Source: Candidatus Firestoneibacteriota bacterium
GTDB lineage: Bacteria > Oederibacteriota > D2-FULL-39-29 > JBBTED01
Assembly: GCA_038042445.1 (NCBI GenBank)
Contig: JBBTED010000021.1
Location: forward strand, 68,085-132,084
Length of the DNA stretch: 64,000 nt
Direction of reading: 5' to 3'
How positions within the stretch are numbered: the stretch's first letter is position 1; the number at the start of each line of letters is the position of its first letter. Positions 11,689 through 47,809 of the stretch are shown piece after piece. Below the pieces are notes generated by a model. That model was not told the DNA's origin and searched no databases. It saw nothing but the letters and a program-made list of their open reading frames with translations. A program made the translations under genes and the position numbers.

Positions 11689-11699
11689 TTTAAACCTTT

Positions 11700-16875: not shown

Positions 16876-17045
16876 AATTTTTCTTTCCTAAATTTCCACT
16901 TTCAAAACTGTGTCATAATGAGAATATTACGCGTTTTGTCATGCTGAATTCATTTCAGCATCTAATAAATTTGTTTTTAGACCCTGAAACAAGTTCAGGG
17001 TGACAAAAAACCGCTTATGACACAGTCTATTTCGTAGAAATGACA

Positions 17046-30028: not shown

Positions 30029-30032
30029 TTAT

Positions 30033-30854: not shown

Positions 30855-30933
30855 AGCTTTCTCCTATTCAAATCCCCCTATTTCCCCCTTTTTCAAAGGG
30901 GGACTAAAGAGGATCCTTAAATTATATAATTTA

Positions 30934-32040
30934 TTAATAGTTTATCTGTACCATCGCGTTAAACTTATTGTTATTTAAAATATTGTCATCCTTCACAAGA
31001 TAATCCACCAAAAATCTCACAGATTTGTCTGCATAAATATTTACTCCTACAGTATAATAGGATAAATATTTACCATCCCAAATATTTTCATCCCATCTTT
31101 CAAGTCTCACTACAGGAGCAATTAACGACAAATCAGAAGATAGCAATCCAAATGGCTTACCTTCCAGAGTAATTATTGCATCCATAACATCAGAAACTCC
31201 AGTTGAGTTTTTGCCTGCTATATACTCAAGAGTAAAAAACACCATATCTGTCTCATATTTCCCTGACACTCCGTAATGGGTCTCATATTTGCTTCCTGTT
31301 GCTATATAACGATTATAATCAGAAACACTAAATTCCAAATCATTCATAGGTTTTGTAATAAGATACGCGGAGAAATCCTTCATACCATCTGTTTCTGACG
31401 CATAAGTAGTACCATTTATTACCGCAATTCTCCACGAAAGAAGATTTTTGAGACTCTCTCCAGGAAGATTGCCATATAACTGAACGCCATAATCATATTT
31501 TGATGTAATCACCTTAGACATAGATTGCGGTGTATCAAAAACTTTTGATTTTGATGCAGGATAATTGTTCTCAAAACTAAACGGAATTATATATTGCCCT
31601 ATCTTCACCTTTAGCAAGTTTTTATCAGCAACAAAATCTGCCCATAACTCCTTAAATGTAACTGTAGACAAAGATATTGCTGATGATGAAAATTCAGGTT
31701 GTATTTTAAATTCTGTCCATTCATTTAATTTCCAGCTAAATCCCACTCTCGCTGTTTTTATTGCAAACGGTTCCTTTCCTCCAAGAGTAGGATCACTTGT
31801 ATATGAAAATTGAGAATACCCTGAAATTTTATAAACTGGGGATGATTTTTTTATTGCTTCATCAGTTTTATTCTTTTCTGCCTGAACCAAAAGTTCATTT
31901 GCAGTCTTAATATCTTTGCCCTCCAATTCAGTAAGCTGACCTTTTTCAACAAGTTTATCTACAAGAATGTCACATTGTCCTGCAAAAAGATTTGTACTAC
32001 AAATTACTATTACCGCTACTAAAACCATAAACTCCTTCAT
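30934..32040 (-). CDS. Putative outer-membrane beta-barrel porin
   Basis: Signal peptide MKEFMVLVAVIVICSTNLFA, alternating amphipathic beta-strand pattern, C-terminal ...MVQINY aromatic terminus. Confidence 0.45.
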   Translation of the reverse strand: MKEFMVLVAVIVICSTNLFAGQCDILVDKLVEKGQLTELEGKDIKTANELLVQAEKNKTDEAIKKSSPVYKISGYSQFSYTSDPTLGGKEPFAIKTARVGFSWKLNEWTEFKIQPEFSSSAISLSTVTFKELWADFVADKNLLKVKIGQYIIPFSFENNYPASKSKVFDTPQSMSKVITSKYDYGVQLYGNLPGESLKNLLSWRIAVINGTTYASETDGMKDFSAYLITKPMNDLEFSVSDYNRYIATGSKYETHYGVSGKYETDMVFFTLEYIAGKNSTGVSDVMDAIITLEGKPFGLLSSDLSLIAPVVRLERWDENIWDGKYLSYYTVGVNIYADKSVRFLVDYLVKDDNILNNNKFNAMVQINY

Positions 32041-32139
32041 ATCTTACTCCTCCCACTTTTATTTTTGCGATACTATCAAAAATGCTTTTGACAGTTTTTT
32101 ATGAATATGTATTACATCCTACATTTTTCAGTTGTAGTG

Positions 32140-32193
32140 ATAGTCGCAAGCTTTAGCTTGCGGTTTTTCCCGCAGGCTAAAGCCTGCGACTAC
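32140..32193. repeat. MITE-like palindromic element (family D), copy 1
   Basis: TAGTCGCAAGCTTTAGCTTGCGG-N8-CCGCAGGCTAAAGCCTGCGACTAC. The two 24-nt arms are inverted copies, each a local hairpin. A second copy is at 39751-39820 and a half copy at 44247-44269. Confidence 0.7.
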
Positions 32194-32217
32194 CTTTTAT
32201 TTGCTTCTCCTTTCTAT

Positions 32218-32544
32218 CTACAAAATTTCTTTATAGCGTTTATTCACAGATGCTGTTATTTTAGTCTCAATCTTTTCAAATTTTTTCAACAAACCTTTTG
32301 CATAATCAGTCAATACTGCCCCTCCACCTCCTTTCCCTCCTCTGTTTTTAACAAGCAAAATTTTCCCCAATCTTTTTTCTGCTGAATGAATATAACTCCA
32401 TGTATGGCGATACGACATATTTAACTTCTCTGCAGCTTTTTTTATAGAATTTGTTTCAGAAACAGCTTTCAAGATAGCATACCTACCCGGACCAAAAACA
32501 AGATTACCGTCTTTTTCAAACCAGACTTTTACTTTTATTTGCAT
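32218..32544 (-). CDS. ModE-like N-terminal domain (winged HTH) molybdate/tungstate-responsive regulator
   Basis: 108 aa with GRYAILKAVSETNSIKKAAEKLNMSYRHTWSYI...NRGGKGGGGAVLT, which matches the ModE N-terminal domain signature (GGKGGGGA). Confidence 0.75.
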   Translation of the reverse strand: MQIKVKVWFEKDGNLVFGPGRYAILKAVSETNSIKKAAEKLNMSYRHTWSYIHSAEKRLGKILLVKNRGGKGGGGAVLTDYAKGLLKKFEKIETKITASVNKRYKEIL

Positions 32545-34138: not shown

Positions 34139-35191
34139 TTAATCCCCCTTTAACAAAGGGGGTATGGGAGATTTATTAAACCATTGAATAAATTTGCCTA
34201 CTCGCTCTTTAATTATAGAATTAGCTTTTTCAAGCTCCTGCTCTCTATCAGCTATATTCTCATTCACTATTTTTTGCAAATCATCAATATTATACAAATA
34301 AACATTTTCTATTTTATTAACTTCTTCATCTATATCTCTTGGCACAGCAAGATCTATAAAAAATATTGGTCTGTATTTTCTTAAAGGCATTATGGTTTTT
34401 ATATCAGATTTATGAATTATATAATTTTGGGCACTCGTAGAACTTATAACAATGTCAATCTCTCTGATCTTTACAAACTTATCTTCAAATCCAACTGATT
34501 CACCATTAAACTTTTGCGCAAGTTCATCTGCACGAGATATCGTCCTATTGGCAATATAGACTTTTTCAACTCCACGCTCCTGCAAATATTTAAGTGCTAA
34601 TTCACTCATTTCGCCTGCGCCAATTACCATAACTTTTTTGCCTATTAATTCTCCAAATATACGTTCTGCCATATCAACAGCAACAGAACTAAGAGATAAT
34701 GCTCCTTTATTTATACCAGTATTTGCACGAACATATTTACCCGCACCTATAGCATTCTGAAACAAAACATTCAAATATTTAGACGTAAATTTATTAGCCT
34801 GCGCTATAGAATATGCTTTTTTAACCTGACCAAGAACTTCATTTTCACCAATTACCATAGAATCAAGACCACTTGTAACTTTAAAAAGGTGTTCTACTGA
34901 ATAAGGGATTGAATGATAAAAAAATATCTTTTCCAGTTCTGCAATATCTAATTTACCTACTTCAGAAAAAAATTGCTTTGTTTTTTTTATAGTGTCATTT
35001 AAATCCAAAGTTGTACAATATATCTCTGCTCTATTACATGTAGAAAGAACAACACATTCTCCCAAAGAAACTTCTGATTTAATCTTTTCAAGAAAATATA
35101 TTAGTTTATCTTCCTGTATAGAAAATTTTTCTCTTATTTCTACTGGAGCCGTCTTGTGATTTACACCAAAAACCATTATATTTGGATTCAT
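34139..35191 (-). CDS. hemA: Glutamyl-tRNA reductase
   Basis: VLSTCNRAEIYC active-site Cys motif, NAD(P)-binding GAGEM; 350 aa. The last 7 codons (PPLLKGD) are encoded by a GC-rich palindromic repeat. Confidence 0.9.
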   Translation of the reverse strand: MNPNIMVFGVNHKTAPVEIREKFSIQEDKLIYFLEKIKSEVSLGECVVLSTCNRAEIYCTTLDLNDTIKKTKQFFSEVGKLDIAELEKIFFYHSIPYSVEHLFKVTSGLDSMVIGENEVLGQVKKAYSIAQANKFTSKYLNVLFQNAIGAGKYVRANTGINKGALSLSSVAVDMAERIFGELIGKKVMVIGAGEMSELALKYLQERGVEKVYIANRTISRADELAQKFNGESVGFEDKFVKIREIDIVISSTSAQNYIIHKSDIKTIMPLRKYRPIFFIDLAVPRDIDEEVNKIENVYLYNIDDLQKIVNENIADREQELEKANSIIKERVGKFIQWFNKSPIPPLLKGD

Positions 35192-35998
35192 TTAATTATG
35201 AAAATTTGTAGGAAATAATAAATTTATTCCGATAAAAGAAAATATCATAAATACAAAAGATGCTATTATTATCCATGCTATTTTTTTCCCTCTAAAAAAA
35301 CCAAATATATGCAAATGCAATAATATTGCATACGTAAACCATGTTATAACTGAAAAAATTTCTTTAAAACTTCCAGACCAATAAACCCCTTCCAAGTTCC
35401 CAAGCCAAAATGCACCAACTATCATTCCTCCAGTTAAAAATAAAAATCCGATTTTAATAGACTGATAACCTAAATTATCCACAATCTGAAGTGCTGGAAC
35501 AGTTTTTGAAGAAAGTATGTCTGATGCATGCTTCTTGATTTTTCTTTCCTGCCATAGATATAAAATTGCACAAACAAATCCTGCTGTAAAGCCTGCGTAT
35601 CCCAAAAAAGTTAAGGTTGTGTGTACCAACAACCACAAATTTGAGAAATAAATCTCTTGTGGCTGGACTTCTTTTAAAAATATCTTAACCACAAGTAAAA
35701 TCATCGCTATTGGCAACAAAATAAAATTCAATGTTTTTACTTTATATTTCAGAGTTATAACTCCAGTTAAAAACACAAGCATCCACGCATAAAATGGCAA
35801 TGCATTAACTATAGAATTTACTGAAAAACATCCTTCTTTGGAATACTTTAGGACAAAATAGGAAGTATGCAAAATAAATGCAATCCATAGCGTGAATTGT
35901 CCATAGAAATTCAACTCACGTTTATTTATAATTGATTTTATATAACTTGCAAAACTTGCAAGGTAAAACAGCAAACTTATTAAAATAATATTTTCCAT
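35192..35998 (-). CDS. HemX/CcsA-family cytochrome c assembly membrane protein
   Basis: 268-aa polytopic membrane protein directly downstream of hemA, as B. subtilis hemX is. Trp-rich segment GVYWSGSFKEI resembles the CcsA WWD region. Confidence 0.55.
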   Translation of the reverse strand: MENIILISLLFYLASFASYIKSIINKRELNFYGQFTLWIAFILHTSYFVLKYSKEGCFSVNSIVNALPFYAWMLVFLTGVITLKYKVKTLNFILLPIAMILLVVKIFLKEVQPQEIYFSNLWLLVHTTLTFLGYAGFTAGFVCAILYLWQERKIKKHASDILSSKTVPALQIVDNLGYQSIKIGFLFLTGGMIVGAFWLGNLEGVYWSGSFKEIFSVITWFTYAILLHLHIFGFFRGKKIAWIIIASFVFMIFSFIGINLLFPTNFHN

Positions 35999-36081: not shown

Positions 36082-36190
36082 ATGTAAAGAATAAAAAAAC
36101 CACACCTATATAAGTGTGGTTTTTTTAAAACTCCAAACTAACGTGTAATTATCTGCGGATGTGCGGAGAGGTATATTAAACACACCGCAG
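36082..36190 (-). terminator. Bidirectional rho-independent terminator (36100-36127) plus about 65 nt conserved 3-prime UTR module, copy 1
   Basis: AAAAAAACCACACCTATATAAGTGTGGTTTTTTT hairpin flanked by A- and T-runs. The flanking ATGTAAAGAATAAAAAAACC and the AAACTA..CGT..GCGGAGAGGT..AAAC.CACC block recur at 42901-43010. Confidence 0.6.
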
Positions 36191-36233: not shown

Positions 36234-38519
36234 TTACCAGTTATATTTTAAACCGATGTAGCCAACATGTGCCGTAAAATCCCTAAGGCTGTCGCCCAAA
36301 AAAATTGCGTTGGGACTAGAAACACCGGCTGCTGTTAAACCTGCGACAACAGGGACATTCTCAACGGCAAAATCCTCAACATCAAAAATAGTCAGAATGT
36401 AACCTCCCACCAAAACCAATCCTTCACCAATCGTATATTCCGGACGAATAGCTAATTCCTGGAGTGCGCTCTTGGTATCTGCTGGATCAGTTTCAACCAC
36501 AGTAGTTGTTCCTGGAATATCGCTGACTGTTATTTTTCCCTTGCCTATGGAATAATTGTATCCCACCATAAGACCTAATTTGGACAAAGGAGAAAAATTC
36601 ATATCAACACCGATAGTATGAAAAATATCATTATTTGTAGCTGTCCAATCATTTGCTGCATCTTGAGTAAGCACTGCGCCTGAGACATTAGACCGTTCTG
36701 TTGACTTAACATTTTGGATGTCATAAAGTAAAGAAATATCGAAAGTTTCATCTAACATCCAATCTGCACTTACTGTTCCACCCTGAGCACTGGATTCCAG
36801 AATACCGTACATATAATTGGTATTAGTAGCAATACCACCAGTTAAATCACCTATACCTGGTTTATATTTATCATCACGGTTAAATGCAGCAAGAGAGAGT
36901 CCAATACCGCCAAGGTCTGTCCATTGAACAGTACCCTTAACTTCGTTTCGGTCCCTGTCTGCCACATCCACCCGACGCAATCCAGGAAGCTCAATCAAAT
37001 CGCCTGCAGAGTTTTTATAGTCACTAATCTCAAAATCATCCATTCGCCTTAATCCCAAAATATAACCAGCTCGGACAGAAAACGAGGAAACAGGTCTATA
37101 GACCAGAGTTCCACGCAAAACACTTTCCTTTGTCTTTTCCACCTCACGTTTTGTTCTTTCCATAATCTCAAGACCACCACCAGCCGAAGCAGTCACATTG
37201 GAAAATACATCCATATCAATATCCACATCCAGATTTTGTCTATGAGGACTATAAACCTTGCTAGTATAAATGCTTGAACTCCAGTTCTGGTCAGCGGTTG
37301 CTTTTCCAGGAAAAACGATTTCCACGGTCTTGTTGCTGACTACTTCGGAACGATAACCAACCCTTGTACCCAAAGAATCCCACGGTCTACTGCTTAAAAT
37401 ATAGGATTGATTAAAAATTCCCCTATTACCATTTAGGCTTGAAACAGGCAATGCAGTCGGATCATAGGCATTAACCGTAGGATTGGCATAAGATCCCGGA
37501 ACAATGGCTGTATTAATAGTATAAGGAAGAAAAATTGCGTTTTGTGTCAAAAGAGCATAACTCAAAGTGGTATGAAAATAACTGTTTAATGGAAGATCGA
37601 GCATATTCACGTTAAATGTAGCCATATGCTGAGTATTGTCTGGATAAAGTGAAGTCCGTCCGGATTTTGAATTCGTACCACCACTATAACCAGAGGCAGA
37701 AGCTTGATCAGTCAATCTTTTGGGATTATCCCAAGTCATTTCTGTTACCTTATTGTGAAATAAAGAATATTCGTAAGCAAGATCCACATTCCAATTTTTT
37801 TGCGTCAAAGATGTGTCCAAAGAAAACTTGGTTGTTTCATAATCAACAGGTTCAGGCAACTCAATTGTGAAAAAGCCCAAAGTTCCTCCAATTGCCTTGG
37901 TTCCGGATTTATTCTCACGATTTGCGCTAATTTTGAAGCCAACATCACCCAAACTGGGAAGACCAATATCAAACCCATAGGAATCTCTAAGCAACTTGAG
38001 GGGTACCGCATTTGTATTTTTGGCTAAATCCAACAACAGATCATTGGTTGTGGGAGACGTGGTAGTTGTGGATGCCTGTAGTTTCCGCTGTATCTCATCG
38101 GATAGAGTAAAAACTCCAGCACTGATTTCCGAAAAAGGCGTCCTTGAAATAAGACTAAGAGAATGAGGTGTCTTGTCCCACCATGCGCTAAAGGACAACC
38201 CATTTTCTCGTTTATAAAGAAACCTGGCGAACTGATCATCTCTCATCACGTTTTTAGCAGTGAAAGAAATACCATAATCTGGGCTTTCAAAATCAAGCCT
38301 GTATTTGTTAATAGAAAGCCCTTTAGGAATAACCCGGTATTCTTCAAATTTAGCTTCTTGAACGTCAAGGTTTTTATAGTTAAAACCAAACTCAATCTCC
38401 TGCTTGACGTTTTCCGCGGCAAAAAGAGACCCCGTCATAATTACGAGTGCACACAAAAACAGTATTCGCATTTGTTTTCCCCTCCTCATTAGATTTATAA
38501 CTTCTTCTTCAATTTCCAT
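36234..38519 (-). CDS. MtrB/PioB-like large outer-membrane beta-barrel (porin-cytochrome conduit sheath)
   Basis: 761 aa. Signal peptide (MRILFLCALVIMTGSLFAA), beta-strand periodicity throughout, C-terminal ...GYIGLKYNW. Immediately downstream of a decaheme cytochrome in the same operon. Confidence 0.5.
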   Translation of the reverse strand: MEIEEEVINLMRRGKQMRILFLCALVIMTGSLFAAENVKQEIEFGFNYKNLDVQEAKFEEYRVIPKGLSINKYRLDFESPDYGISFTAKNVMRDDQFARFLYKRENGLSFSAWWDKTPHSLSLISRTPFSEISAGVFTLSDEIQRKLQASTTTTSPTTNDLLLDLAKNTNAVPLKLLRDSYGFDIGLPSLGDVGFKISANRENKSGTKAIGGTLGFFTIELPEPVDYETTKFSLDTSLTQKNWNVDLAYEYSLFHNKVTEMTWDNPKRLTDQASASGYSGGTNSKSGRTSLYPDNTQHMATFNVNMLDLPLNSYFHTTLSYALLTQNAIFLPYTINTAIVPGSYANPTVNAYDPTALPVSSLNGNRGIFNQSYILSSRPWDSLGTRVGYRSEVVSNKTVEIVFPGKATADQNWSSSIYTSKVYSPHRQNLDVDIDMDVFSNVTASAGGGLEIMERTKREVEKTKESVLRGTLVYRPVSSFSVRAGYILGLRRMDDFEISDYKNSAGDLIELPGLRRVDVADRDRNEVKGTVQWTDLGGIGLSLAAFNRDDKYKPGIGDLTGGIATNTNYMYGILESSAQGGTVSADWMLDETFDISLLYDIQNVKSTERSNVSGAVLTQDAANDWTATNNDIFHTIGVDMNFSPLSKLGLMVGYNYSIGKGKITVSDIPGTTTVVETDPADTKSALQELAIRPEYTIGEGLVLVGGYILTIFDVEDFAVENVPVVAGLTAAGVSSPNAIFLGDSLRDFTAHVGYIGLKYNW

Positions 38520-38547
38520 TATTTATATTAGTTTTTTAAAATCTCAA

Positions 38548-39492
38548 TTACCGCATAAAATAAACACCCGATGGATGATTTGATCCATGTATATTCACAT
38601 GACAATTTTGGCAAGAACGATTAATAATGCGAGAGTTTTGTTGTTTCACAGCCGAATCATCATAAAGTGTGCTCGGGTGCCTAGTCCCCACATGACACCG
38701 CTGACATAAAAGAAACGGACTTTTGGCTATGAGCATCTTGTCCTGCAAAGAACCATGAGCATCGTGACAAGTCAAACAATTTTCCTGAACAGGAGCATGC
38801 TCCCAAAGAAAAGGACCACGCTTTTCCGCATGACAGGTAAGACAAAGCTCCCTTGTAGAAGCAGTTTTTAAATTTTTGGCATATGGGGATCCATGAGGGT
38901 CGTGGCAAGTAACACAGGAAAGTTTTCCCTCCTTAGTCGGCATATGAGAAGCTTTAGACATATGAGCCTTTTTATCTTTATGACATTGAAAACAATTTTC
39001 AGTCGACGTTTTCTTTTTCAGCAATTTCCCCTGATCCGGTCCCGGCACAGAAGATTTATGAGAATTGTGACAAGAATTACAGGTTAAACCTTGACGCGAA
39101 TGTGTGCTCCCCTTCCAATTAGGATGGGTGTTGCCATGACATTGCAAACAAGAATTTGCTAATTCTTTTGGATTTGTCTTTGGTCCAAGAATAGTGGCAT
39201 AACCAGCCGCATTTTTATCTCCTGCAGCTTCCGCATGAAGCGAACCTGCACCATGACAAGTTTCACAATGTTCAGCTTGATTCAATTGCTTTTCTTTAAC
39301 AAACGTTTTCGCATGAAAACTTTTTTGAAATTCCTTTCCATGGTCATCATGACAAGTCATACATTTCTCAGAACCAATATGTCCAGCTTTTTCCTCTGAG
39401 TACGTAACTCGCACAAGAGTAAAAAAACATACAATGCTTACAATACAAAATATATTTACTATATATTTCATTTTACCCATATTATCCTCCAT
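38548..39492 (-). CDS. MtrA/PioA/DmsE-family periplasmic decaheme cytochrome c
   Basis: 314 aa with a signal peptide and ten CxxCH motifs: CMTCH, CETCH, CLQCH, CNSCH, CFQCH, CVTCH, CLTCH, CLTCH, CQRCH, CQNCH. Confidence 0.75.
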   Translation of the reverse strand: MEDNMGKMKYIVNIFCIVSIVCFFTLVRVTYSEEKAGHIGSEKCMTCHDDHGKEFQKSFHAKTFVKEKQLNQAEHCETCHGAGSLHAEAAGDKNAAGYATILGPKTNPKELANSCLQCHGNTHPNWKGSTHSRQGLTCNSCHNSHKSSVPGPDQGKLLKKKTSTENCFQCHKDKKAHMSKASHMPTKEGKLSCVTCHDPHGSPYAKNLKTASTRELCLTCHAEKRGPFLWEHAPVQENCLTCHDAHGSLQDKMLIAKSPFLLCQRCHVGTRHPSTLYDDSAVKQQNSRIINRSCQNCHVNIHGSNHPSGVYFMR

Positions 39493-39556: not shown

Positions 39557-39573
39557 TGCAATTTTCGTGCCAA
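39557..39573 (-). promoter_or_regulatory. Sigma-54 (-24/-12) promoter upstream of the decaheme cytochrome operon
   Basis: The minus strand reads TTGGCACGAAAATTGCA, a perfect TGGCACG-N4-TTGCA. It lies about 65-80 nt upstream of the start codon at 39492. Confidence 0.7.
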
Positions 39574-39661: not shown

Positions 39662-39697
39662 TGTGTATTTTTACACACAACTGTGTAAAAATACACA
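39662..39697. promoter_or_regulatory. Inverted-repeat candidate enhancer (UAS) for the sigma-54 promoter
   Basis: TGTGTATTTTTACACA-CAAC-TGTGTAAAAATACACA is a perfect 16-bp inverted repeat about 100 bp upstream of the -24 element. Confidence 0.5.
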
Positions 39698-39750: not shown

Positions 39751-39820
39751 GTAGTCGCAAGCTTTAGCTTGCGGTATTATAGCTTTTACCATTTTTCCGC
39801 AGGCTAAAGCCTGCGACTAC
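39751..39820. repeat. MITE-like palindromic element (family D), copy 2
   Basis: GTAGTCGCAAGCTTTAGCTTGCGG-N22-CCGCAGGCTAAAGCCTGCGACTAC; same 24-nt inverted arms as at 32140. Confidence 0.7.
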
Positions 39821-39867: not shown

Positions 39868-41277
39868 TTATTCTTTTGATTCAAGAATTCCTAACTTTAT
39901 TGCTCTATATCTCAAAGAATCACGACTAATTCCAAGAATTTTTGCGGCCCGCACTTGATTCCCATTCGTTTTATGCAATGCCTGCAAAATAAGTTCTTTT
40001 TCAAATTCTTTGAGTGTAGATTTTTCTTTGGCTGTTTTGTTAAATTCTGGCATTTCTCCTTCATAACTTCTTAATTCTAAAGGCAAATGAGTAAGATTAA
40101 TATTCTCTACCGCTCCGATTATAATTGCACGTTCTATAATATTTTTTAATTCTCTTATATTCCCAGGCCAGTGATACCGCAAAAAAACATTTTTTACTTC
40201 CTTAGACAAAACAGGTGGATTTTTTTTCTTCAATTCATAGCTATATTGTTTCAAAAAATGCTCTGTGAGTAAAATAATATCTTCCATCCGTTCTCTAAGT
40301 GGAGATAATTTTAAAGTAAAAGCATTTAATCGATAATATAAATCATTACGGAATTCGCCTATTTTAATTGCCTTGGTTAAATCTTTATTTGTTGCTGCAA
40401 TAATTCCAACATTAACTTCTATATCTGAAACAGCACCCAGTGGTCTAAAAGATTTATTTTCAATTAATTGCAAAATTTTTGCCTGAAGACTTAGACCCAT
40501 ATCACCTATTTCATTTAAAAATAATGTTCCTTCATCTGCACTATGCACAAGACCTTTTTTTGCTTGTTTTGCATCTGTAAACGCGCCCTTTTCATAACCA
40601 AACAATTCACTTTCAAGCAAATTATCCGGTATAGCAGCACAATTTATCTCAACGAATGGCTTCTTTATCCTTTTACTTTCGTAATGTATTGCTTTTGCAA
40701 GAATATCCTTACCTGTGCCACTCTCCCCACAAATTAAAATTGGAGATGCACTGCTATTTACTAATTTTTTTGCAAATTCCACTACTTCCAGTATTGACTT
40801 GTTTTTCCCTACAATACTAGAAAAACTATATTGCCTTAATTGTTGATTCCTTAACGATTTTGCTTCCACATAAACACTTGCATTTTCAATAACTTTATCA
40901 ATAAGCAATCTTAACTCATCTAAATCAAATGGTTTATTAATATAATCATTCGCTCCTCTTTTCATAGCCTCTATAGCAGTAGAAATGTCTCCAAAAGCTG
41001 TAATCATTATCACAGGAATTTCTAAATCGGATTCTTTTATTTTTTTCAAAATTTCCAAACCATCAATTCCAGGGAGCTTAATATCACATAAAACCAAATG
41101 AGGATGAAAATTTATAAATTTTTCAAAACCATCTTCGCCAGTTTCTGCCACTACTATATCATAACCATATTTAAATAAATTTTCCTTCAAAGACCACCTT
41201 ATTAATTCCTCGTCATCAATTACTAAAATTTTCTTTTTAATCATAATTTTTTCCCTTATGGTTGATATTCTTTTCAC
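39868..41277 (-). CDS. Sigma-54-dependent response regulator (NtrC family: REC-AAA+-HTH)
   Basis: REC domain (ILVIDDEELIRWSL...D), sigma-54 interaction domain (GESGTGKD...GAFTDA...ESELFGYEKGAFT) and C-terminal Fis-type HTH. Confidence 0.9.
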   Translation of the reverse strand: MKRISTIREKIMIKKKILVIDDEELIRWSLKENLFKYGYDIVVAETGEDGFEKFINFHPHLVLCDIKLPGIDGLEILKKIKESDLEIPVIMITAFGDISTAIEAMKRGANDYINKPFDLDELRLLIDKVIENASVYVEAKSLRNQQLRQYSFSSIVGKNKSILEVVEFAKKLVNSSASPILICGESGTGKDILAKAIHYESKRIKKPFVEINCAAIPDNLLESELFGYEKGAFTDAKQAKKGLVHSADEGTLFLNEIGDMGLSLQAKILQLIENKSFRPLGAVSDIEVNVGIIAATNKDLTKAIKIGEFRNDLYYRLNAFTLKLSPLRERMEDIILLTEHFLKQYSYELKKKNPPVLSKEVKNVFLRYHWPGNIRELKNIIERAIIIGAVENINLTHLPLELRSYEGEMPEFNKTAKEKSTLKEFEKELILQALHKTNGNQVRAAKILGISRDSLRYRAIKLGILESKE

Positions 41278-41287: not shown

Positions 41288-42778
41288 TCAATTTTTATTC
41301 ACAGGAAGTTTTATAACAAAACAGGTTTTTTTCACTTCCTCACTTGTAAATTCAATTATTCCATTATGCATTTTAACAATATTCTGGCTGGTAAAAAGCC
41401 CTAAACCTGTACCACCAGGCTTTGTTGTAAAAAAAGGCTGAAAAATTTTGTCTACATATTTACTTGGTATTCCTTTTCCAGTATCACAAATTGAAATTAT
41501 CACAAAATCATCTAAAAGTGAAGTGTTTATAGCTAACACTCCACCTTTAGGCATTGCACTGATTGCATTCAAAAAAATATTTACAAAAACCTGAAGTATT
41601 AATTCTGCGTCTAAATTTAAATCAGGAATTTCCTTACTGTACTGTTTTTCTACTTTTATTTGATGATCAGTAATATGTTTATGGACAAAGAAAAAAGCTT
41701 TTTCAATAATCTCCTGAATGTTAACACTTTTTATTTCTAATGTTATTGGCTTAGAATAATTTAACAAATTTTCAACAGTTTTTGCTAATCTATTCACCTG
41801 AATATTTATTTTTTCATATATTTCTTTTTGTATCGGTATTTTTGCAGATTGCTCTAATGTCTGAAAAGCAGCTTTTATACCTGCCAATGGATTTTTAATC
41901 TCATGAGCTAAACTTGCGTAAAGTTTTCCTAAAGATGCAAGTCTATCTGCATGGGCAATCTGTTCCTGATGATATTTCTATATTGATTCTTTAGATTGTT
42001 TCAGATTATCCACCATTTTATTGAAATTTTCAGCTAAAACATCCAATTCATTATTTTCTTTAATATCCACATTTACATTCAAATCACCCTGACTTACTTT
42101 ATTAAATGCTAAAAGCAATTTTTGTATAGGACGATTCACTACCTTTTTCATAAAAAATACAAGTACAAGTGATATAACTAATAAAATAGCAAGAGTCATT
42201 ATAATATGCATTTTAGCATTATCCATTATATTATCCATAAGAGATTTCCATGAAATGGATATTTCCAAAAAACCTATTATACTTTCATTTGACTTATGAC
42301 AACCATAACATTTCTTTTTATTTACAATTTGCTGTTTAAATACATAAATAGGTTCTCCATTTTTATAAGTCAGTTCTGCGGATTTATTATTTTTTGATAC
42401 AGACTCAACTTTTAATATTCTAACACCAGACAAATGTTGTCCTTCATTTAAATTTTTTAGTACACTATCCAATTTTTTCTGTTTGCCAGATAACATAATA
42501 TCTTCAATACTTTTAAGGATAGTATCTGCTATAACTTTTGCATGTTCTGATTCAGCTTTCAACCATTCTTTTTTTTGAAATTTTATATCAAAATAACCGG
42601 CAATTAAACTTACAATAGAAAATACCAAAATAATAACAAAAACCAATTGGAAACTTAAATTACGATGAACTTTTCGCATATTTTTTATACACCACACAAA
42701 ATTCACAGGTTTTATGAGTTCCAAGCACTTCATCACACATTGTATTTTTAATTTCCCAGCATGGTAATTTATGGCCAA
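41288..42778 (-). pseudogene. Sensor histidine kinase with periplasmic CxxCH heme motif, split by an in-frame TAG (41978-41980) just upstream of the H-box
   Basis: The upstream part (41978-42778) has TM segments, periplasmic CYGCHK and HAMP (...NFNKMVDNLKQSKESI*). In the same frame after the TAG comes KYHQEQIAHADRLASLGKLYASLAHEIKNPL (DHp H-box), then the HATPase_c domain (41288-41887; the track ORF starts at TTG). Confidence 0.65.
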
Positions 42779-43046: not shown

Positions 43047-44201
43047 TTAGAACATATATTGAGCTTCTATAGAAAATTTGTTTGTGTTTTTGGCACTCGC
43101 CTGACTAAGTGTATATTCGCCTACGAATCTGCCATACATATATGGTCTCCAGACCAAACCCATTACAGGTCCCTGTGTTTCATCAACAGTTTTTTCTGTA
43201 TTAGAATCAAAATAGTCATACCTCACATAAGGAGTCACTACATCTGAAAGCAGTTTATACCCTACTTCAAGATAACCACCAAGACTATACTGTTTGTCAG
43301 CACCTGCATTTTTTGTATTTCTTCCTGACAATAAAAGTCCTGTTAATGTCCAGGTTGAAGTAAAATAATTGAACATAGGGCCAACTTGATAGAAATTGTC
43401 ATCAAAACCAGTCATTGGAGCTTGTCCTATGTATCCATACATTCCAACTATACTTCCATCACTATCTAATTCATAATCAGCAGTAACATATACGTCTTTA
43501 AAATTATTATTATCTACTACGTTAAAATTACTAGCACCTGTGCCATTAACTACACCCAAAGAAGCCATAACATTCCAACTACATTTATGGCTTAATTCTA
43601 TGCCATAATTTCTTTGGAATGGTTTATACGGATTGCTTCCAACAACACTTGTAAGAGCTAATGATCTGTCCTTCCCTAATCTTCCACCTGTTCCATGAAT
43701 ATATAGAAGCTGTGAAAGAATCTGACCGAATCTAACTGTTGTATAACTCTTTTCATCTCCTGTGGTATACTGAATAAATGCTTCTGCTAATTTGCTACGG
43801 GCAAAATCATTAAAATCACTTGTTCCAGAATTTTTGCCTGAATTTTCATGAAAATACATTTCTGCAAAATATGAAAATCCACTACCCAATGCACCTCCTG
43901 TATACAAAGAAAATGCATGCTGTTCAAAGCTGCTTATTTTTTTATCTTCAGCATTAAATCTGACTTTCCCAGTAAAACTTGCATAATCACTCAAATTCTT
44001 TCCTGCTTCTTCATTTGCCATCATATGGCCCATTCTTAAAAAATCCTGACCTGTTTTGTTAAGCTTATTTACATTCCAATGACACATAGTGCAATCAGCA
44101 CCATATTTTCTCGCCCATGCTGCAATTGCAAAAGAATCTTTTGCAACTACACCTAAAGCAAAAGTAATTATTGCAATTACTAACAACATTTTTGCTTTCA
44201 T
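43047..44201 (-). CDS. Cyc2-like fused monoheme cytochrome c / outer-membrane beta-barrel (candidate Fe(II) oxidase or EET porin-cytochrome)
   Basis: 384 aa. Signal peptide MKAKMLLVIAIITFALGVVA, then a single CxxCH (CTMCHW) about 15 aa after the predicted cleavage site. The remainder has beta-barrel-like alternating strands and ends ...IEAQYMF. Confidence 0.5.
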   Translation of the reverse strand: MKAKMLLVIAIITFALGVVAKDSFAIAAWARKYGADCTMCHWNVNKLNKTGQDFLRMGHMMANEEAGKNLSDYASFTGKVRFNAEDKKISSFEQHAFSLYTGGALGSGFSYFAEMYFHENSGKNSGTSDFNDFARSKLAEAFIQYTTGDEKSYTTVRFGQILSQLLYIHGTGGRLGKDRSLALTSVVGSNPYKPFQRNYGIELSHKCSWNVMASLGVVNGTGASNFNVVDNNNFKDVYVTADYELDSDGSIVGMYGYIGQAPMTGFDDNFYQVGPMFNYFTSTWTLTGLLLSGRNTKNAGADKQYSLGGYLEVGYKLLSDVVTPYVRYDYFDSNTEKTVDETQGPVMGLVWRPYMYGRFVGEYTLSQASAKNTNKFSIEAQYMF

Positions 44202-44246: not shown

Positions 44247-44269
44247 CGCAGGCTAAAGCCTGCGTCTAC
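44247..44269. repeat. Family D half element (single arm)
   Basis: CGCAGGCTAAAGCCTGCGTCTAC matches the right arm of the 32140 and 39751 elements. Confidence 0.55.
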
Positions 44270-44713: not shown

Positions 44714-44979
44714 ATATATTATATAGCTGCAGAGCAAAGCTCTGCTAAAAAACAGCAAAGCTTTCGCTTTGCTGCTACATAAACCATACAAAATCCATTA
44801 AATATTAGAATGGTTAATCTATTATACATTATTTATGCAAGAACTATGCCAATTTTTTAATGTATTATAAAATGTATTGAAATTACTGTAGTTATATTGA
44901 TAAATTTAATAGTTAATAGAAGAATATTACCATAGATAATTGTATTGTTTTAGGACAATATTTGAATAGTTGTATTATT

Positions 44980-46350
44980 TTAAGACAAATCTTTAGATAT
45001 TGAATATTGCTGGATTTTCCTATAAAGAGTATCTCTGGATATTCTTAATATTTCAGCAGCTTTTAATTTATTTCCATTTGTAGATTTAAGAACTGAAATT
45101 ATAGCAGATTTTTCTGATTCCTCAAGGGAACATACTTTTACAGTATCAGAATTATTAGTTTCTAATACTCGCATATGCGAAGGTAAATCCTGTTCAACAA
45201 AAATATTTTTATTCACTTTAATTGCGAATAAACCTTCTATTAAATTTTCCAATTCACGAACATTGCCTGGCCAGTTGTATTTTACTAAAACATCCAATGC
45301 TTCACGTTCAAAACCCTCTACTTTCTTTTTGTATTTATCATTAAATTTATCAATAAAATATTTCACAAGAAGTGGAATATCTTCTTTTCTTTCTCTAAGT
45401 AGAGGAATTGTGATAGTAATAGTGCTTAATCTATAGTACAGTTCCTTTCTTATGCCACTTTTATTTCCATCAGAAATTATATTATGCGATGATGCAGCAA
45501 GAATTCTTACATTTACAGCTATTTCTTTTATATCACCTACAGGCCTTATTTTTTTGTCCTGAAGGACTCTTAAAAGTTTTGCCTGACTTTCCTTTGGCAT
45601 TTCACTAATTTCATCAAGCAATATTGTCCCTCCTTCACTTGCTCTGAATATACCTATATAATCCGAATTCGCACCTGTAAAACTTCCTTTTTTATAACCA
45701 AAAAGTTCACTCTCAACAAGATTTGAAGGAATACCTCCACAATTTATCGGCATAAATGTATTATTTTTTCTATTACTTAAATTATGTATTGCTCTTGCAA
45801 CAAGTTCTTTTCCAACACCAGTTTCTCCAAGTATCAAAACAGGACAATCTACAGATGCCGATGCCCTTATTCTATCAAAAACATTTTTCATTAATTTACT
45901 TTCTCCAATAATATTTTCGATGCTATATTTCGAATTAAGCTGGCTCTGTAAATGAGCAACATCAGTCTCAAGTTTCATTATTTTAAATAAGCGATTAATA
46001 CAAATCATAATCTGATCTTTAGTAAAAGGTTTAATTATATAATCAGAAGCTCCCATTTTTATTGCTGTAACTGCATCCTGAATTGTTCCATAACCAGTCA
46101 TCATAATAACTTCAATAGCAGGACTATGTTCTTTGATTTTTTTCAAAAGCTCAAATCCATTCATTTGACCCATTCTAATATCGGTTATAATAATTTTAAC
46201 GTCCTGCTCAATCTTGATTTTCTCAATAGCTTCCTCACCAGAATATGCCTTAACAGTAGAAAATCCCTGTCTTAAAAAAAGTTTTGCGCAGGTCTCTACC
46301 ATACCCTTATCATCATCAACAATTAAAATTTTTATCATATCATGTATCAT
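44980..46350 (-). CDS. Sigma-54-dependent response regulator (NtrC family), paralog 2
   Basis: REC, AAA+ sigma-54 activator (GETGVGKE...ESELFGYKKGSFTGA) and HTH domains; 456 aa. Confidence 0.9.
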   Translation of the reverse strand: MIHDMIKILIVDDDKGMVETCAKLFLRQGFSTVKAYSGEEAIEKIKIEQDVKIIITDIRMGQMNGFELLKKIKEHSPAIEVIMMTGYGTIQDAVTAIKMGASDYIIKPFTKDQIMICINRLFKIMKLETDVAHLQSQLNSKYSIENIIGESKLMKNVFDRIRASASVDCPVLILGETGVGKELVARAIHNLSNRKNNTFMPINCGGIPSNLVESELFGYKKGSFTGANSDYIGIFRASEGGTILLDEISEMPKESQAKLLRVLQDKKIRPVGDIKEIAVNVRILAASSHNIISDGNKSGIRKELYYRLSTITITIPLLRERKEDIPLLVKYFIDKFNDKYKKKVEGFEREALDVLVKYNWPGNVRELENLIEGLFAIKVNKNIFVEQDLPSHMRVLETNNSDTVKVCSLEESEKSAIISVLKSTNGNKLKAAEILRISRDTLYRKIQQYSISKDLS

Positions 46351-46403
46351 GCTGAATTTATTTCAGCATCTCTTTTAGACCCTGAAACAAGTTCAGGGTG
46401 ACA
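46348..46403. repeat. Family A two-hairpin palindromic repeat, intergenic copy 2
   Basis: CATGCTGAATTTATTTCAGCATC ... GACCCTGAAACAAGTTCAGGGTGACA. Near-identical to 16938-17005. Confidence 0.75.
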
Positions 46404-46423
46404 ATTCAAAGCTTGTCCTGAAT

Positions 46424-47809
46424 TCACTTCAATATTGGAAAACTTATTGTAAAAGTTGTATATTTATTTACTTCACTTGCAACAGTAATTGTTCCTCTGA
46501 GTTCTTCTATTAGTTTCCTACATATCGCTAAACCAAGACCTGTTCCATTCTTTGCTTCTTTTGTAGTAAAAAATGGCTCAAATATTTCGTTGAGGTTTTC
46601 TTTAGATATACCAGAACCATCATCTGTAAAATCAACCTCTATAAAATTATTATCAATAACTTTTGTTTTCACACTAATAGTTCCACCCTTTTCAATAGCA
46701 TCAAAGGAATTAGAAAAAAGGTTTAAAAAAATCTGTTCAAGTTGATCACAAGATGCAAGCACTTTCACTTTATCAGTTTCAGCAACGTCTATTTTCAAAG
46801 AGACATCATTCTTTCTAAAAATGTGGCTAAGTATTTCTATTATATCAGTTAAAACTTTATTGAAGTTACATTCCTGCAATTTTTCTTTTGCTTTAGTAGA
46901 ACGAGAAAAACCCAACAAATGTTCAACTATTTCTTTGCACCGTTGTAATTGATGATTTATAAATTTTAATTCTCCAAGATAACTTTTGTTTTTTATATCT
47001 TCCATCAACATTTCTGCACGTAACATTGCAGAAGCTAATGGAGTTTTCATTTGATGTGCGATTCCAGCCGCAATTTGTCCAACCAATACCATTTTATCAA
47101 CCCTATTTATTTTTTCTTCCTGAAGCCTTACAATTTCTTCCTGTGAATTCTCCAAAGCATTTAACATTGAATTGAATTGTTTTGAAATAACTCCAAATTC
47201 ATCATTTCTGGATACAGATAAACGTTTTTTTGTAACACCCTTTTCTACCTGCTTCATCGCATCCAATAATACTTTTATAGGCGTATTTACTATAAAAAAT
47301 ATTGCTAAGCCAATCAAAAGTGAAGTGATTATTACAATAGCAAAAAAAGAGTATATATGTATTTTTAACTCTTTTTTTACACGTAATAAAGCAGGAGTAA
47401 TAGATTTAGAAATACGTATATATCCTAATACAGGTTTTGTATTTTTATGACATTTAAAACACTCTTTTTTGTTAAAAATTGGAACAAAATAAACAAAATT
47501 ATCCCTTAAATCTATATTTACACCCTTTGCTATTATCTTAACCTCTTGATTGCTATTCAAAATCGTAATTTCATTAAAACCAATATTTAATACGAGTTTT
47601 TTTATAAATTTTTCTATTTCACCAATTTTTTTATCCAACATTGAATTTTCAATCTGTTGATGAATTGTTTTACAAAAAAGATTTAGCCGACGTGTTTCAT
47701 CATCAATAACCCATTCATTTGTGTGAGATATCTCTACATATAAATATAACCCAAGCAATACAAACAGAATAAATGTTATTGCAATAATTAATTTAAAAGC
47801 TATTTTCAT
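46424..47809 (-). CDS. Sensor histidine kinase with periplasmic CxxCH heme-binding motif (intact paralog)
   Basis: TM, periplasmic domain with NKKECFKCHKNTKP, second TM, HAMP, H-box GIAHQMKTPL, HATPase_c (GTGLGLAICRKL); 461 aa. Confidence 0.85.
   Translation of the reverse strand: MKIAFKLIIAITFILFVLLGLYLYVEISHTNEWVIDDETRRLNLFCKTIHQQIENSMLDKKIGEIEKFIKKLVLNIGFNEITILNSNQEVKIIAKGVNIDLRDNFVYFVPIFNKKECFKCHKNTKPVLGYIRISKSITPALLRVKKELKIHIYSFFAIVIITSLLIGLAIFFIVNTPIKVLLDAMKQVEKGVTKKRLSVSRNDEFGVISKQFNSMLNALENSQEEIVRLQEEKINRVDKMVLVGQIAAGIAHQMKTPLASAMLRAEMLMEDIKNKSYLGELKFINHQLQRCKEIVEHLLGFSRSTKAKEKLQECNFNKVLTDIIEILSHIFRKNDVSLKIDVAETDKVKVLASCDQLEQIFLNLFSNSFDAIEKGGTISVKTKVIDNNFIEVDFTDDGSGISKENLNEIFEPFFTTKEAKNGTGLGLAICRKLIEELRGTITVASEVNKYTTFTISFPILK

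What the first reader, a model, noticed from the sequence alone, without database searches (positions are those of the whole stretch)
36234..39492. MtrAB/PioAB-type porin-cytochrome conduit: decaheme cytochrome plus 761-aa outer-membrane barrel
A 314-aa secreted protein with exactly ten CxxCH motifs sits immediately upstream of a very large beta-barrel protein with an aromatic C-terminus, in the same operon. This matches the MtrA-MtrB / PioA-PioB / MtoA-MtoB organisation for trans-outer-membrane electron transfer (metal reduction or Fe(II) oxidation). Together with the Cyc2-like gene and heme-sensor kinases nearby, it defines an extracellular-electron-transfer island in this lineage.
Basis: partly seen in the sequence, partly recalled or inferred. 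Interest (0 to 1): 0.6.

Follow-up and report, generated by a model that had tools for sequence, protein, structure and literature searches.

The report
Two-gene outer-membrane electron conduit (MtrAB type)
An uncultured Firestonebacteria genome carries an ordinary two-gene "molecular wire" for moving electrons across the outer membrane: a ten-haem cytochrome threaded through a 26-strand barrel. It is correctly identified and already auto-annotated, and is new only for this phylum and for its sigma-54 and haem-sensor control.

Summary

- **Cytochrome.** Window 38548-39492(-) encodes a secreted cytochrome with exactly ten CxxCH motifs. It passes the curated DmsE/MtrA-family model and aligns end to end with crystallised MtrA (6R2Q_A, E 1.7e-49, 42% identity).
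- **Barrel.** Window 36234-38519(-) encodes an MtrB/PioB-family protein (Pfam 248 bits). Its model has 26 long strands, and its only strong PDB match is MtrB (6R2Q_B, E 9e-38, TM 0.87). LptD/BamA and TonB-receptor readings are excluded.
- **Operon.** The two genes lie between a perfect sigma-54 promoter (39557-39572) and an intrinsic terminator (36092-36127). Upstream sit a sigma-54 response regulator and a kinase with a periplasmic CxxCH.
- **Second module.** A paralogous kinase and regulator precede a 384-aa single-haem 16-strand porin. It is Cyc2-like in architecture but fails the published Cyc2 motif.
- **Missing partners.** No MtrC/OmcA partner or quinol dehydrogenase lies in the 64 kb. 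The system is therefore MtoAB/PioAB-like, and the direction of electron flow is unresolved.
- **Status.** The organism is a Candidatus Firestonebacteria MAG. PGAP already gives both names. The family is large (at least 1368 50%-identity clusters).

Verdict: new member of a known kind, modest interest.

The parts
38548..39492 (-). mtrA/mtoA/pioA-like decahaem c-type cytochrome. The ORF is 314 aa; the likely start is at 39480, giving 310 aa.
   Evidence: Ten CxxCH. NCBIfam TIGR03508, 236 bits against cut-off 192.2. 6R2Q_A E 1.7e-49 over residues 34-312, 42% identity. Ten further invariant His in the 17-sequence alignment A3. The Shine-Dalgarno sequence supports the start at 39480.
36234..38519 (-). 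mtrB/mtoB/pioB-like 26-strand outer-membrane barrel. The ORF is 761 aa; the likely start is at 38471, giving 745 aa.
   Evidence: Pfam PF11854, 247.9 bits, full length. TIGR03509, 197 bits, below cut-off 240. AlphaFold model pLDDT 85.7 with 26 long strands. Foldseek top hit 6r2q_B, E 9.2e-38, TM 0.87. Start-site evidence.
39557..39572 (-). Sigma-54 (-24/-12) promoter TGGCACGAAAATTGCA, 65 nt upstream of the first ATG of the cytochrome gene.
   Evidence: It is the only zero-mismatch match to TGGCAC-N5-TTGCW in the 64 kb. It lies downstream of a sigma-54 enhancer-binding response regulator gene.
39662..39697 (.). 16-bp inverted repeat TGTGTATTTTTACACA / TGTGTAAAAATACACA, about 100 nt upstream of the sigma-54 promoter. 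It is a candidate enhancer (UAS) for the response regulator.
   Evidence: Sequence read. Detected as a 16-pair inverted repeat. Its function is inferred from position only.
36092..36127 (-). Intrinsic terminator closing the two-gene operon.
   Evidence: 16-pair stem followed by a T-run, 107 nt after the barrel gene's stop. A sigma-70-like promoter (36088-36060) for the next genes follows it.
39868..41277 (-). Sigma-54-dependent response regulator (receiver, AAA+ sigma-54 activator and Fis-type HTH domains), directly upstream of the conduit operon.
   Evidence: Pfam domains. It is 38% identical to the second regulator at 44980-46350.
41288..42679 (-). Sensor histidine kinase with a periplasmic domain carrying one CxxCH. 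In this window it is interrupted by a TAG at 41978-41980.
   Evidence: HAMP, HisKA and HATPase domains. CxxCH. The gene is intact at 463 aa in the near-identical assembly L001; the single difference is GAG to TAG.
43047..44201 (-). 384-aa single-haem 16-strand porin. It is Cyc2-like in architecture; a neighbouring module, not part of the mtrAB operon.
   Evidence: One CxxCH near the N-terminus. Model pLDDT 89.6 with 16 strands. Best PDB matches are 16-strand porins, including OprO. No Pfam or NCBIfam hit. Its motif is AIAAWARKYGADCTMCH, against the Cyc2 AXPXFAR[Q/K][T/Y].
44836..44851 (-). Sigma-54 promoter-like site TGGCATAGTTCTTGCA, upstream of a 131-aa ORF (44318-44713) and the single-haem porin gene.
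   Evidence: It is the only one-mismatch match in the window. Two TTGT-N11-ACAA repeats lie 100-140 nt upstream.
44980..47809 (-). Paralogous module: haem-sensor histidine kinase (46424-47809) and sigma-54 response regulator (44980-46350).
   Evidence: Pfam domains. The two kinases are 28% identical over their full length, with CxxCH at the same place.

Best explanation
This is a two-gene porin-cytochrome electron conduit of the MtrAB/MtoAB/PioAB family.

**Mechanism (inferred by homology to the solved Mtr complex).**
- The roughly 310-aa cytochrome is exported and receives ten covalently bound bis-His haems.
- It is threaded through the lumen of the 26-strand barrel.
- Its haem chain then forms an insulated wire across the outer membrane, linking periplasmic redox carriers to substrates outside the cell.

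**Organisation.**
- No MtrC/OmcA-type surface cytochrome is encoded nearby. The organisation therefore matches the MtoAB/PioAB type, in which the cytochrome itself meets the external substrate (Fe(II)/Fe(III), minerals, humics or a partner cell).
- Transcription starts at a sigma-54 promoter. It is presumably switched on by the adjacent response regulator, under a kinase whose periplasmic sensor domain carries a c-type haem site. This suggests redox or ligand sensing.

**What is shown and what is inferred.**
- Shown: family membership, fold, operon boundaries and promoter sequence.
- Inferred: complex formation, regulation and physiological role.
- Direction of electron flow cannot be read from sequence. 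I rate inward flow (Fe(II) oxidation or electron uptake) at about 0.5, outward flow (reduction of extracellular acceptors) at about 0.4, and other or none at 0.1.
For: **Cytochrome**
- Ten CxxCH motifs.
- TIGR03508 above its curated cut-off.
- Full-length alignment to crystallised MtrA, E 1.7e-49, 42% identity.
- About 50% identity to the homologue in the iron oxidiser Ca. Ferrigenium straubiae KS.
- All ten motifs, ten further His and the Trp of the LWEH segment are invariant in 17 relatives. That Trp aligns with the LWEH Trp of S. baltica MtrA and is probably the conserved MtrA Trp204 described in PMC7198977; the residue numbering was not checked.

**Barrel**
- PF11854, 247.9 bits.
- Model with 26 long strands.
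- Foldseek top hit MtrB 6r2q_B, E 9e-38, TM 0.87. The next hit is 27 orders of magnitude weaker.

**Synteny**
- The cytochrome gene is immediately followed by an MtrB/PioB gene in 79 of 80 genome loci from many phyla.

**Regulation**
- Perfect sigma-54 promoter and sigma-54 regulator.
- The same order, haem-sensor kinase, then sigma-54 regulator, then cytochrome, then barrel, occurs in L017. L068 has the same order with two trihaem cytochrome ORFs and about 2.4 kb between the regulator and the pair. L004 has a sigma-54 regulator and a promoter-like site.

**Operon end**
- Terminator after the barrel gene.
Against: - The barrel scores below NCBIfam's curated TIGR03509 cut-off (197 against 240). 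By sequence it matches crystallised MtrB only weakly (E 4e-7).
- The window holds no periplasmic carrier, quinol dehydrogenase (CymA/NapC, CbcL, ImcH) or terminal reductase/oxidase, so the rest of the pathway is unseen.
- In this assembly the cognate kinase carries a premature stop, so the circuit may be off in part of the population.
- There are no expression or biochemical data, and the organism is an uncultured MAG.
- Phylogeny cannot give direction. MtoA/PioA do not form function-specific clades (PMC8805035).
Confidence: 0.85

Rival explanations
1. Inward conduit. It acts as an MtoAB/PioAB-like Fe(II)-oxidising or electron-uptake system alongside the neighbouring single-haem porin. This would resemble Sideroxydans, where Cyc2 and MtoAB are proposed as parallel iron-oxidation pathways and MtoAB is linked to oxidation of solid minerals.
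For: - There is no MtrC/OmcA gene in 64 kb.
- The two-gene organisation is as in MtoAB/PioAB.
- A Cyc2-like single-haem 16-strand porin lies 3.5 kb away under a paralogous regulator.
- Relatives include Ca. Ferrigenium straubiae and purple sulfur bacteria.
- Papers on Sideroxydans describe dual Cyc2 and Mto use (abstracts listed).
Against: - The porin fails the published Cyc2 motif: W replaces F, and there is no PXL.
- No electron sink (oxidase, nitrate reductase, photosystem) or MtoD/PioC/CymA-type carrier is seen in the window.
- Nothing is published on respiration in Firestonebacteria.
Confidence: 0.45
2. Outward conduit. It exports respiratory or fermentative electrons to Fe(III)/Mn(IV) minerals, humics or a syntrophic partner. 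The surface cytochrome would be encoded elsewhere, or absent.
For: - The cytochrome is 42% identical to Shewanella MtrA of the metal-reducing complex.
- Mtr-type conduits are described as bidirectional (PMC6295460).
- The related locus L004 carries several extra multihaem cytochromes downstream.
- Low-GC groundwater MAGs of this kind are usually anaerobes (my own general knowledge, not tested).
Against: - There is no MtrC/OmcA/DmsAB-type gene nearby.
- The barrel lacks the N-terminal CXXC motif that I recall as typical of metal-reducing gammaproteobacterial MtrB. Its only Cys is in the signal peptide.
Confidence: 0.35
3. Silent or decaying acquisition. The pair was recently acquired by horizontal transfer and is poorly expressed or non-functional in this host.
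For: - GC3 of the two genes (0.29 and 0.33) is the highest in the window outside the cas genes. Most host genes, including the adjacent regulators, have 0.14-0.25.
- The cognate kinase has a nonsense codon in this assembly.
- The closest barrel homologue among 1.84 billion representatives is only 46% identical, and it sits in a different gene context.
Against: - Both ORFs are intact, with all ten haem motifs and all distal His.
- Shine-Dalgarno sequences, promoter and terminator are all in place.
- The kinase is intact in a near-identical assembly.
- The elevated GC3 could reflect codon bias rather than foreign origin.
Confidence: 0.1
4. The barrel is not an electron-conduit sheath but another large outer-membrane protein (LptD, BamA or a TonB-dependent receptor), and the cytochrome is a periplasmic reductase subunit.
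For: - The barrel falls below the TIGR03509 cut-off.
- Foldseek also lists 22-strand TonB-dependent receptors.
Against: - Those receptor hits have TM of about 0.4 and E of about 1e-10, against TM 0.87 and E 9e-38 for MtrB.
- The Pfam MtrB_PioB match covers the full length.
- The cytochrome scores far below the cut-offs for NrfH, the octahaem tetrathionate reductase and the GSU2203 family.
Confidence: 0.02

Closest known systems
MtoAB (Sideroxydans lithotrophicus ES-1, Gallionellaceae) and PioAB (Rhodopseudomonas palustris TIE-1)
   Same: - The organisation is two genes, decahaem then barrel, with no MtrC.
- The cytochrome has ten CxxCH and is about 310 aa, like MtoA.
- It is about 50% identical to the homologue of the Gallionellaceae iron oxidiser Ca. 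Ferrigenium straubiae KS.
- A single-haem porin is encoded nearby, as Cyc2 co-occurs with Mto in Sideroxydans.
   Different: - No mtoD, cymA/mtoC or pioC (HiPIP) gene is adjacent.
- There is no long PioA-type N-terminal extension.
- The host is a low-GC candidate phylum of unknown physiology.
- Control is by sigma-54 and a haem-sensor kinase.
MtrAB core of the MtrCAB complex (Shewanella baltica OS185, PDB 6R2Q)
   Same: - The cytochrome aligns over the full mature length, with all haem motifs and distal His conserved.
- The barrel model is a 26-strand sheath with TM 0.87 to MtrB.
   Different: - There is no mtrC/omcA.
- The barrel is only about 18% identical in the structural alignment.
- The barrel lacks the N-terminal CXXC that I recall for Shewanella-type MtrB.
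DmsEF (extracellular DMSO respiration in Shewanella)
   Same: The cytochrome is named by the same NCBIfam model (DmsE family, TIGR03508), and its gene is paired with an MtrB-type barrel gene.
   Different: No dmsAB-type molybdoenzyme genes lie next to the pair.
Geobacter porin-cytochrome complexes (OmbB-OmaB-OmcB; GSU2203/2204 family)
   Same: The concept is the same: a periplasmic multihaem cytochrome plus an outer-membrane barrel.
   Different: The family is different. GSU2203 scores 215 bits against a cut-off of 325, and GSU2204 scores 30 bits against 350.
Cyc2 fused cytochrome-porin (compared with the neighbouring 384-aa gene only)
   Same: Signal peptide, one N-terminal CxxCH, a 16-strand porin resembling OprO/OprP, and a length over 365 aa (PMC8406198).
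   Different: - The signature AXPXFAR[Q/K][T/Y] reads AIAAWARKY here, and AIPAWxRKY in the family consensus.
- The PXL motif is absent.
- All 74 relatives found are unnamed or labelled 'hypothetical'.

Membership tests
DmsE/MtrA/MtoA/PioA decahaem cytochrome family (NCBIfam TIGR03508) | Score at or above the curated family cut-off. | tested here: met
   236 bits against a cut-off of 192.2, covering profile positions 1-258 of 258.
DmsE/MtrA/MtoA/PioA decahaem cytochrome family (NCBIfam TIGR03508) | Ten CxxCH haem-binding motifs and ten distal His ligands (bis-His haems). | tested here: met
   Ten CxxCH. Ten further invariant His: H86, H131, H145, H183, H200, H232, H246, H272, H302 and H306. Their role as ligands is inferred from the MtrA structure (PMC7198977).
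DmsE/MtrA/MtoA/PioA decahaem cytochrome family (NCBIfam TIGR03508) | Full-length similarity to a structurally characterised member. | tested here: met
   6R2Q_A E 1.7e-49, query residues 34-312 against chain residues 57-331. 42% identity.
DmsE/MtrA/MtoA/PioA decahaem cytochrome family (NCBIfam TIGR03508) | The gene lies immediately upstream of an MtrB/PioB-type barrel gene. | tested here: met
   Seen in the window and in 79 of 80 related genome loci.
DmsE/MtrA/MtoA/PioA decahaem cytochrome family (NCBIfam TIGR03508) | Covalent haem attachment, redox activity and insertion into the barrel. | not testable with these tools
   This needs haem staining, spectroscopy, co-purification or a structure.
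MtrB/PioB outer-membrane barrel family | Pfam PF11854 gathering threshold. | tested here: met
   247.9 bits against 23, E 3.1e-73, residues 76-761 on profile positions 27-635 of 635.
MtrB/PioB outer-membrane barrel family | NCBIfam TIGR03509 curated cut-off. | tested here: not met
   197.1 bits against a cut-off of 240.05. This marks a divergent member; PGAP nevertheless names it MtrB/PioB family.
MtrB/PioB outer-membrane barrel family | 26-strand antiparallel beta-barrel resembling MtrB. | tested here: met
   Model pLDDT 85.7, pTM 0.79, 26 long strands. 6r2q_B E 9.2e-38, TM 0.87 by target and 0.75 by query. The 26-strand count for MtrB is from PMC7198977.
MtrB/PioB outer-membrane barrel family | N-terminal CXXC motif of metal-reducing gammaproteobacterial MtrB (a subfamily trait, recalled from my own knowledge). 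| tested here: not met
   The only Cys is residue 23, inside the signal peptide.
MtrCAB three-component system | An MtrC/OmcA-type extracellular decahaem cytochrome clustered with mtrAB. | tested here: not met
   No other multihaem ORF occurs in the 64-kb window. The only other CxxCH are single sites in two kinases, the 384-aa porin and a 91-aa plus-strand ORF at 4779-5051 inside the cas region. The rest of the genome was not available.
Cyc2 fused cytochrome-porin (neighbouring gene 43047-44201) | Single N-terminal CxxCH fused to a 16-strand porin, at least 365 aa long. | tested here: met
   384 aa. CxxCH at residues 37-41. 16 strands. Porin matches include OprO 4rjw.
Cyc2 fused cytochrome-porin (neighbouring gene 43047-44201) | AXPXFAR[Q/K][T/Y] upstream of CxxCH and PXL downstream (PMC8406198). 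| tested here: not met
   The window reads AIAAWARKYGADCTMCHWNVNKLN. The family consensus is AIPAWxRKYGxDCxxCHxxxxKL. W replaces F, and there is no Pro in the downstream motif.

The most novel reading that the evidence does not exclude
The kinases with a periplasmic c-haem site, together with their sigma-54 regulators, could form a dedicated redox-sensing switch for outer-membrane electron conduits.

- The same cassette order (haem-sensor kinase, sigma-54 regulator, decahaem cytochrome, barrel) recurs in at least one distant lineage (L017), and more loosely in a second (L068).
- In this genome the module is duplicated, with one copy in front of the conduit operon and one in front of a divergent Cyc2-like porin.
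- If this reading is correct, it would be the first evidence of extracellular electron transfer in the phylum Firestonebacteria, and a previously undescribed way of regulating such conduits.
Probability: 0.3. Interest if true: 0.5.

Novelty: new member of a known kind. Interest (0 to 1): 0.3.

Why it matters
- **Phylum.** It extends MtrAB-type conduits to Candidatus Firestonebacteria, a candidate phylum with no described energy metabolism. None of the 17 papers in the library that mention the phylum has a title or abstract about such conduits or extracellular electron transfer, and the two I searched do not mention them.
- **Testable unit.** It is a compact, cleanly bounded unit: sigma-54 promoter, two genes and a terminator, with a candidate haem-based sensor. 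It could be tested heterologously.
- **Annotation.** The identification itself is routine. NCBI's pipeline already assigns both names.
- **Family size.** The family has thousands of members across many phyla.

Tried and rejected
- **Genome scan with the barrel alignment (A1).** It failed because no stretch was conserved enough. I used the cytochrome alignment A3 instead.
- **AlphaFold-database fold search.** Not available, so the 384-aa porin could not be compared with predicted Cyc2 models.
- **Cyc2 reference sequences.** A search of the Cyc2 paper's supplements for them found nothing.
- **Kinase sensor domain against PDB sequences.** No meaningful match.
- **Is sigma-54 control general for the family?** It is not. 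A sigma-54 regulator lies directly upstream in 8 of 86 cytochrome genes, and a promoter-like site in 5 of 86.
- **Is the Cyc2-like gene generally linked to mtrAB?** It is not. It appears only in this locus and one other of the 80 genome loci, plus one probable Elusimicrobia contig. In a 63%-identical relative it sits beside molybdenum-cofactor genes.
- **GC3 as evidence of horizontal transfer.** Suggestive but not decisive.
- **ccsA-like/hemA genes as part of the operon.** Rejected, because a terminator and a separate promoter intervene.
- **Direction of electron flow from phylogeny.** Rejected as uninformative, following PMC8805035.


Full report
**Observation.**
Both ORFs lie on the minus strand at the stated coordinates. 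The 314-aa product has exactly ten CxxCH motifs. The whole window holds only 14 CxxCH in six-frame ORFs of at least 60 aa; the other four are single sites. The 761-aa product ends in KYNW.

Reading the DNA refines both starts.
- GGAGG at 39486-39490 precedes the ATG at 39480. This gives 310 aa, the length of the PGAP-named 310-aa protein.
- AGGAGGGG plus 7 nt precedes the ATG at 38471. This gives a 745-aa precursor with a classical signal peptide, MRILFLCALVIMTGSLFA/AENV.

The locus matches two other public assemblies. It differs by one base in 22,286 from L001 and by none in 6,752 from L002, so it is not an artefact.

**Identity of the cytochrome.**
- NCBIfam TIGR03508 (DmsE-family decahaem) scores 236 bits against a curated cut-off of 192.2, over the whole profile.
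- The GSU2203, NrfH, OmcA/MtrC and octahaem models all fall far below their cut-offs.
- Against all PDB sequences the best hit is chain A of 6R2Q, the MtrA of the Shewanella baltica Mtr complex. It scores E 1.7e-49 over residues 34-312 and is 42% identical.
- In an alignment with 16 relatives of 45-59% identity, several features are invariant: all ten CxxCH, exactly ten further histidines, and the Trp of the LWEH segment.
- This fits ten bis-His haems. The Trp aligns with the LWEH Trp of S. baltica MtrA and is probably the conserved MtrA Trp204 described for the crystal structure (PMC7198977); I did not check the residue numbering.

**Identity of the barrel.**
- Pfam PF11854 (MtrB_PioB) matches over the full length at 247.9 bits, E 3.1e-73.
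- NCBIfam TIGR03509 scores 197 bits, below its strict cut-off of 240. Plain sequence similarity to crystallised MtrB is weak (E 4e-7). It is therefore a divergent member.
- An AlphaFold model built on 35 homologues has pLDDT 85.7, pTM 0.79 and 26 long strands.
- Foldseek against the PDB puts MtrB (6r2q_B) first, at E 9.2e-38 and TM 0.87. Everything else is a 22-strand TonB-dependent receptor at about E 1e-10 and TM 0.4.
- The protein has no Cys outside its signal peptide. It therefore lacks the N-terminal CXXC that I recall as typical of metal-reducing gammaproteobacterial MtrB.

**Operon anatomy.**
- A perfect sigma-54 promoter, TGGCACGAAAATTGCA, lies at 39557-39572. It is the only zero-mismatch match in 64 kb.
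- About 100 nt further upstream is a 16-bp inverted repeat (39662-39697), in the position expected for an enhancer site.
- A 16-pair stem with a T-run at 36127-36092 terminates transcription after the barrel gene.
- A sigma-70-like promoter follows at once for the ccsA-like and hemA genes. Those genes are neighbours, not part of the operon.

**Regulators and the second module.**
- Directly upstream of the operon are a sigma-54 response regulator (39868-41277) and a histidine kinase. The kinase's periplasmic domain carries one CxxCH.
- In this window the kinase is cut by a TAG at 41978-41980. The near-identical assembly L001 has GAG there and an intact 463-aa gene.
- Further upstream the pattern repeats. 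A paralogous kinase is 28% identical over its full length, with CxxCH at the same place. A paralogous regulator is 38% identical.
- After these come a one-mismatch sigma-54 promoter (44836-44851), a 131-aa ORF and a 384-aa protein. A terminator lies at 42947-42913.

**The 384-aa protein.**
- It has no Pfam or NCBIfam match.
- It models confidently (pLDDT 89.6) as a short N-terminal haem segment plus a 16-strand porin. Its best PDB matches are PorB, Omp32 and OprO.
- That is the Cyc2 architecture. However, the published Cyc2 signature (AXPXFAR[Q/K][T/Y] ... CXXCH ... PXL; PMC8406198) is not met. The window reads AIAAWARKYGADCTMCHWNVNKL, and the family consensus is AIPAWxRKY.
- I call it Cyc2-like, not Cyc2.

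**Organism and distribution.**
- Exact-sequence look-up names the source as a Candidatus Firestonebacteria MAG. PGAP already labels the two proteins 'DmsE family decaheme c-type cytochrome' and 'MtrB/PioB family outer membrane beta-barrel protein'.
- The cytochrome family is very large. 7849 of 8000 scored candidates reach E 1e-10 or better.
- A scan of one genome per species found at least 598 loci. The best 80 come from Elusimicrobia, Eisenbacteria, Acidobacteriota, Aminicenantes, Gallionellaceae (Ca. Ferrigenium straubiae KS), purple sulfur bacteria and others.
- In 79 of those 80, an MtrB/PioB gene follows the cytochrome gene directly.
- An exhaustive HMMER search of 1.84 billion representatives found 1368 barrel relatives at E 0.001 or better, and 188 at 1e-30 or better. 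The nearest is 46% identical and sits in an unrelated context.

**How much of the neighbourhood is conserved.**
- No other multihaem cytochrome, MtrC/OmcA, NapC/CymA or HiPIP gene lies in the window.
- The order haem-sensor kinase, sigma-54 regulator, cytochrome, barrel recurs in L017. In L068 the same order holds, but two trihaem cytochrome ORFs and about 2.4 kb separate the regulator from the pair.
- L004 has a sigma-54 regulator plus a promoter-like site.
- Sigma-54 control is not general, though. A regulator lies directly upstream of 8 of 86 cytochrome genes, and a promoter-like site of 5 of 86.
- The Cyc2-like gene is rarely linked to mtrAB. In a 63%-identical relative it lies beside molybdenum-cofactor genes.
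- GC3 of the two conduit genes (0.29 and 0.33) exceeds that of most host genes, including the adjacent regulators (0.14-0.25). This hints at horizontal acquisition but does not prove it.

**Mechanism and direction.**
By homology with the solved Mtr complex, the cytochrome should sit inside the barrel and carry electrons across the outer membrane. The missing MtrC makes it MtoAB/PioAB-like in organisation.

Direction cannot be inferred from sequence.
- Mtr-type systems are described as bidirectional (PMC6295460).
- MtoA/PioA do not form function-specific clades (PMC8805035).
- The Cyc2-like neighbour and the lack of a surface cytochrome tilt slightly toward electron uptake or Fe(II) oxidation.
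- The likely anaerobic lifestyle and the missing electron sink tilt the other way.

**Literature.**
Seventeen papers in the library mention Firestonebacteria. None has a title or abstract about Mtr-type conduits or extracellular electron transfer, and the two I searched do not mention them.

**Verdict.**
The finding is correct but ordinary. It is a new member of a well-known family, already named by automatic annotation. Its modest added interest lies in the phylum and in the sigma-54 and haem-sensor regulatory cassette.

Noticed in passing
window 41978-41980 (- strand): The haem-sensor kinase upstream of the conduit operon has a TAG stop in this window. The otherwise identical assembly GCA_964358285.1 has GAG and an intact 463-aa gene. 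This is the only difference in 22,286 bp. It is either a population nonsense polymorphism or a sequencing error.
   Followed up: yes
window 43047-44201 (- strand): A 384-aa single-haem 16-strand porin. It belongs to a family of at least 74 proteins, all unnamed or labelled 'hypothetical', found in Elusimicrobia, Eisenbacteria, Holophagaceae, Geothrix and Bdellovibrio. Its consensus is AIPAWxRKYGxDCxxCH, a variant of the Cyc2 signature with W in place of F. In a 63%-identical relative (L089) it lies next to molybdenum-cofactor biosynthesis genes.
   Followed up: partly
window 46424-47809 and 41288-42679 (- strand): Two paralogous histidine kinases share a periplasmic sensor domain with one CxxCH just before the second membrane helix. 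The domain has no Pfam model and no PDB relative. Homologous haem-site kinases precede mtrAB in L017 and L068.
   Followed up: partly
window 1547-2178 and 2731-11766: A type I-C CRISPR-Cas locus (Cas3, Cas5d, Csd1/Cas8c, Cas7, Cas4, Cas1), with an array of 32-nt repeats, GTTTCAATCCACGCGCCCACGCGGGGCGCGAC. A YhcG/DUF1016 PD-(D/E)XK nuclease gene (7405-8619) is inserted between cas5 and cas8c. GC3 is elevated across the locus.
   Followed up: no
window 32145-32188, 39756-39815, 44247-44264: A REP-like palindromic element, CGCAGGCTTTAGCCTGCG, sometimes paired with CGCAAGCTTTAGCTTGCG. It recurs in three intergenic regions. There are 8 matches, against 0 expected by chance.
   Followed up: partly
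window 28272-32544 (- strand): A tungstate/molybdate-type ABC transporter (binding protein, permease, and ATPase with TOBE domain). It is preceded by a haem-less Porin_O_P-like 368-aa outer-membrane protein and a small ModE-like HTH protein.
   Followed up: no
window 34139-35998 (- strand): A CcsA/HemX-like 'cytochrome c assembly' membrane protein (below the ccsB cut-off). It directly abuts hemA (glutamyl-tRNA reductase), immediately downstream of the conduit operon, but has its own promoter.
   Followed up: partly
window 14416-19490 (- strand): Two tandem paralogous proteins of about 815 aa. Each combines an N-terminal TMEM260-like (protein O-mannosyltransferase-like) membrane domain with long TPR arrays.
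   Followed up: no
window 11700-13070 (- strand): A single ORF fuses a TatD-type DNase domain to a radical-SAM domain.
   Followed up: no
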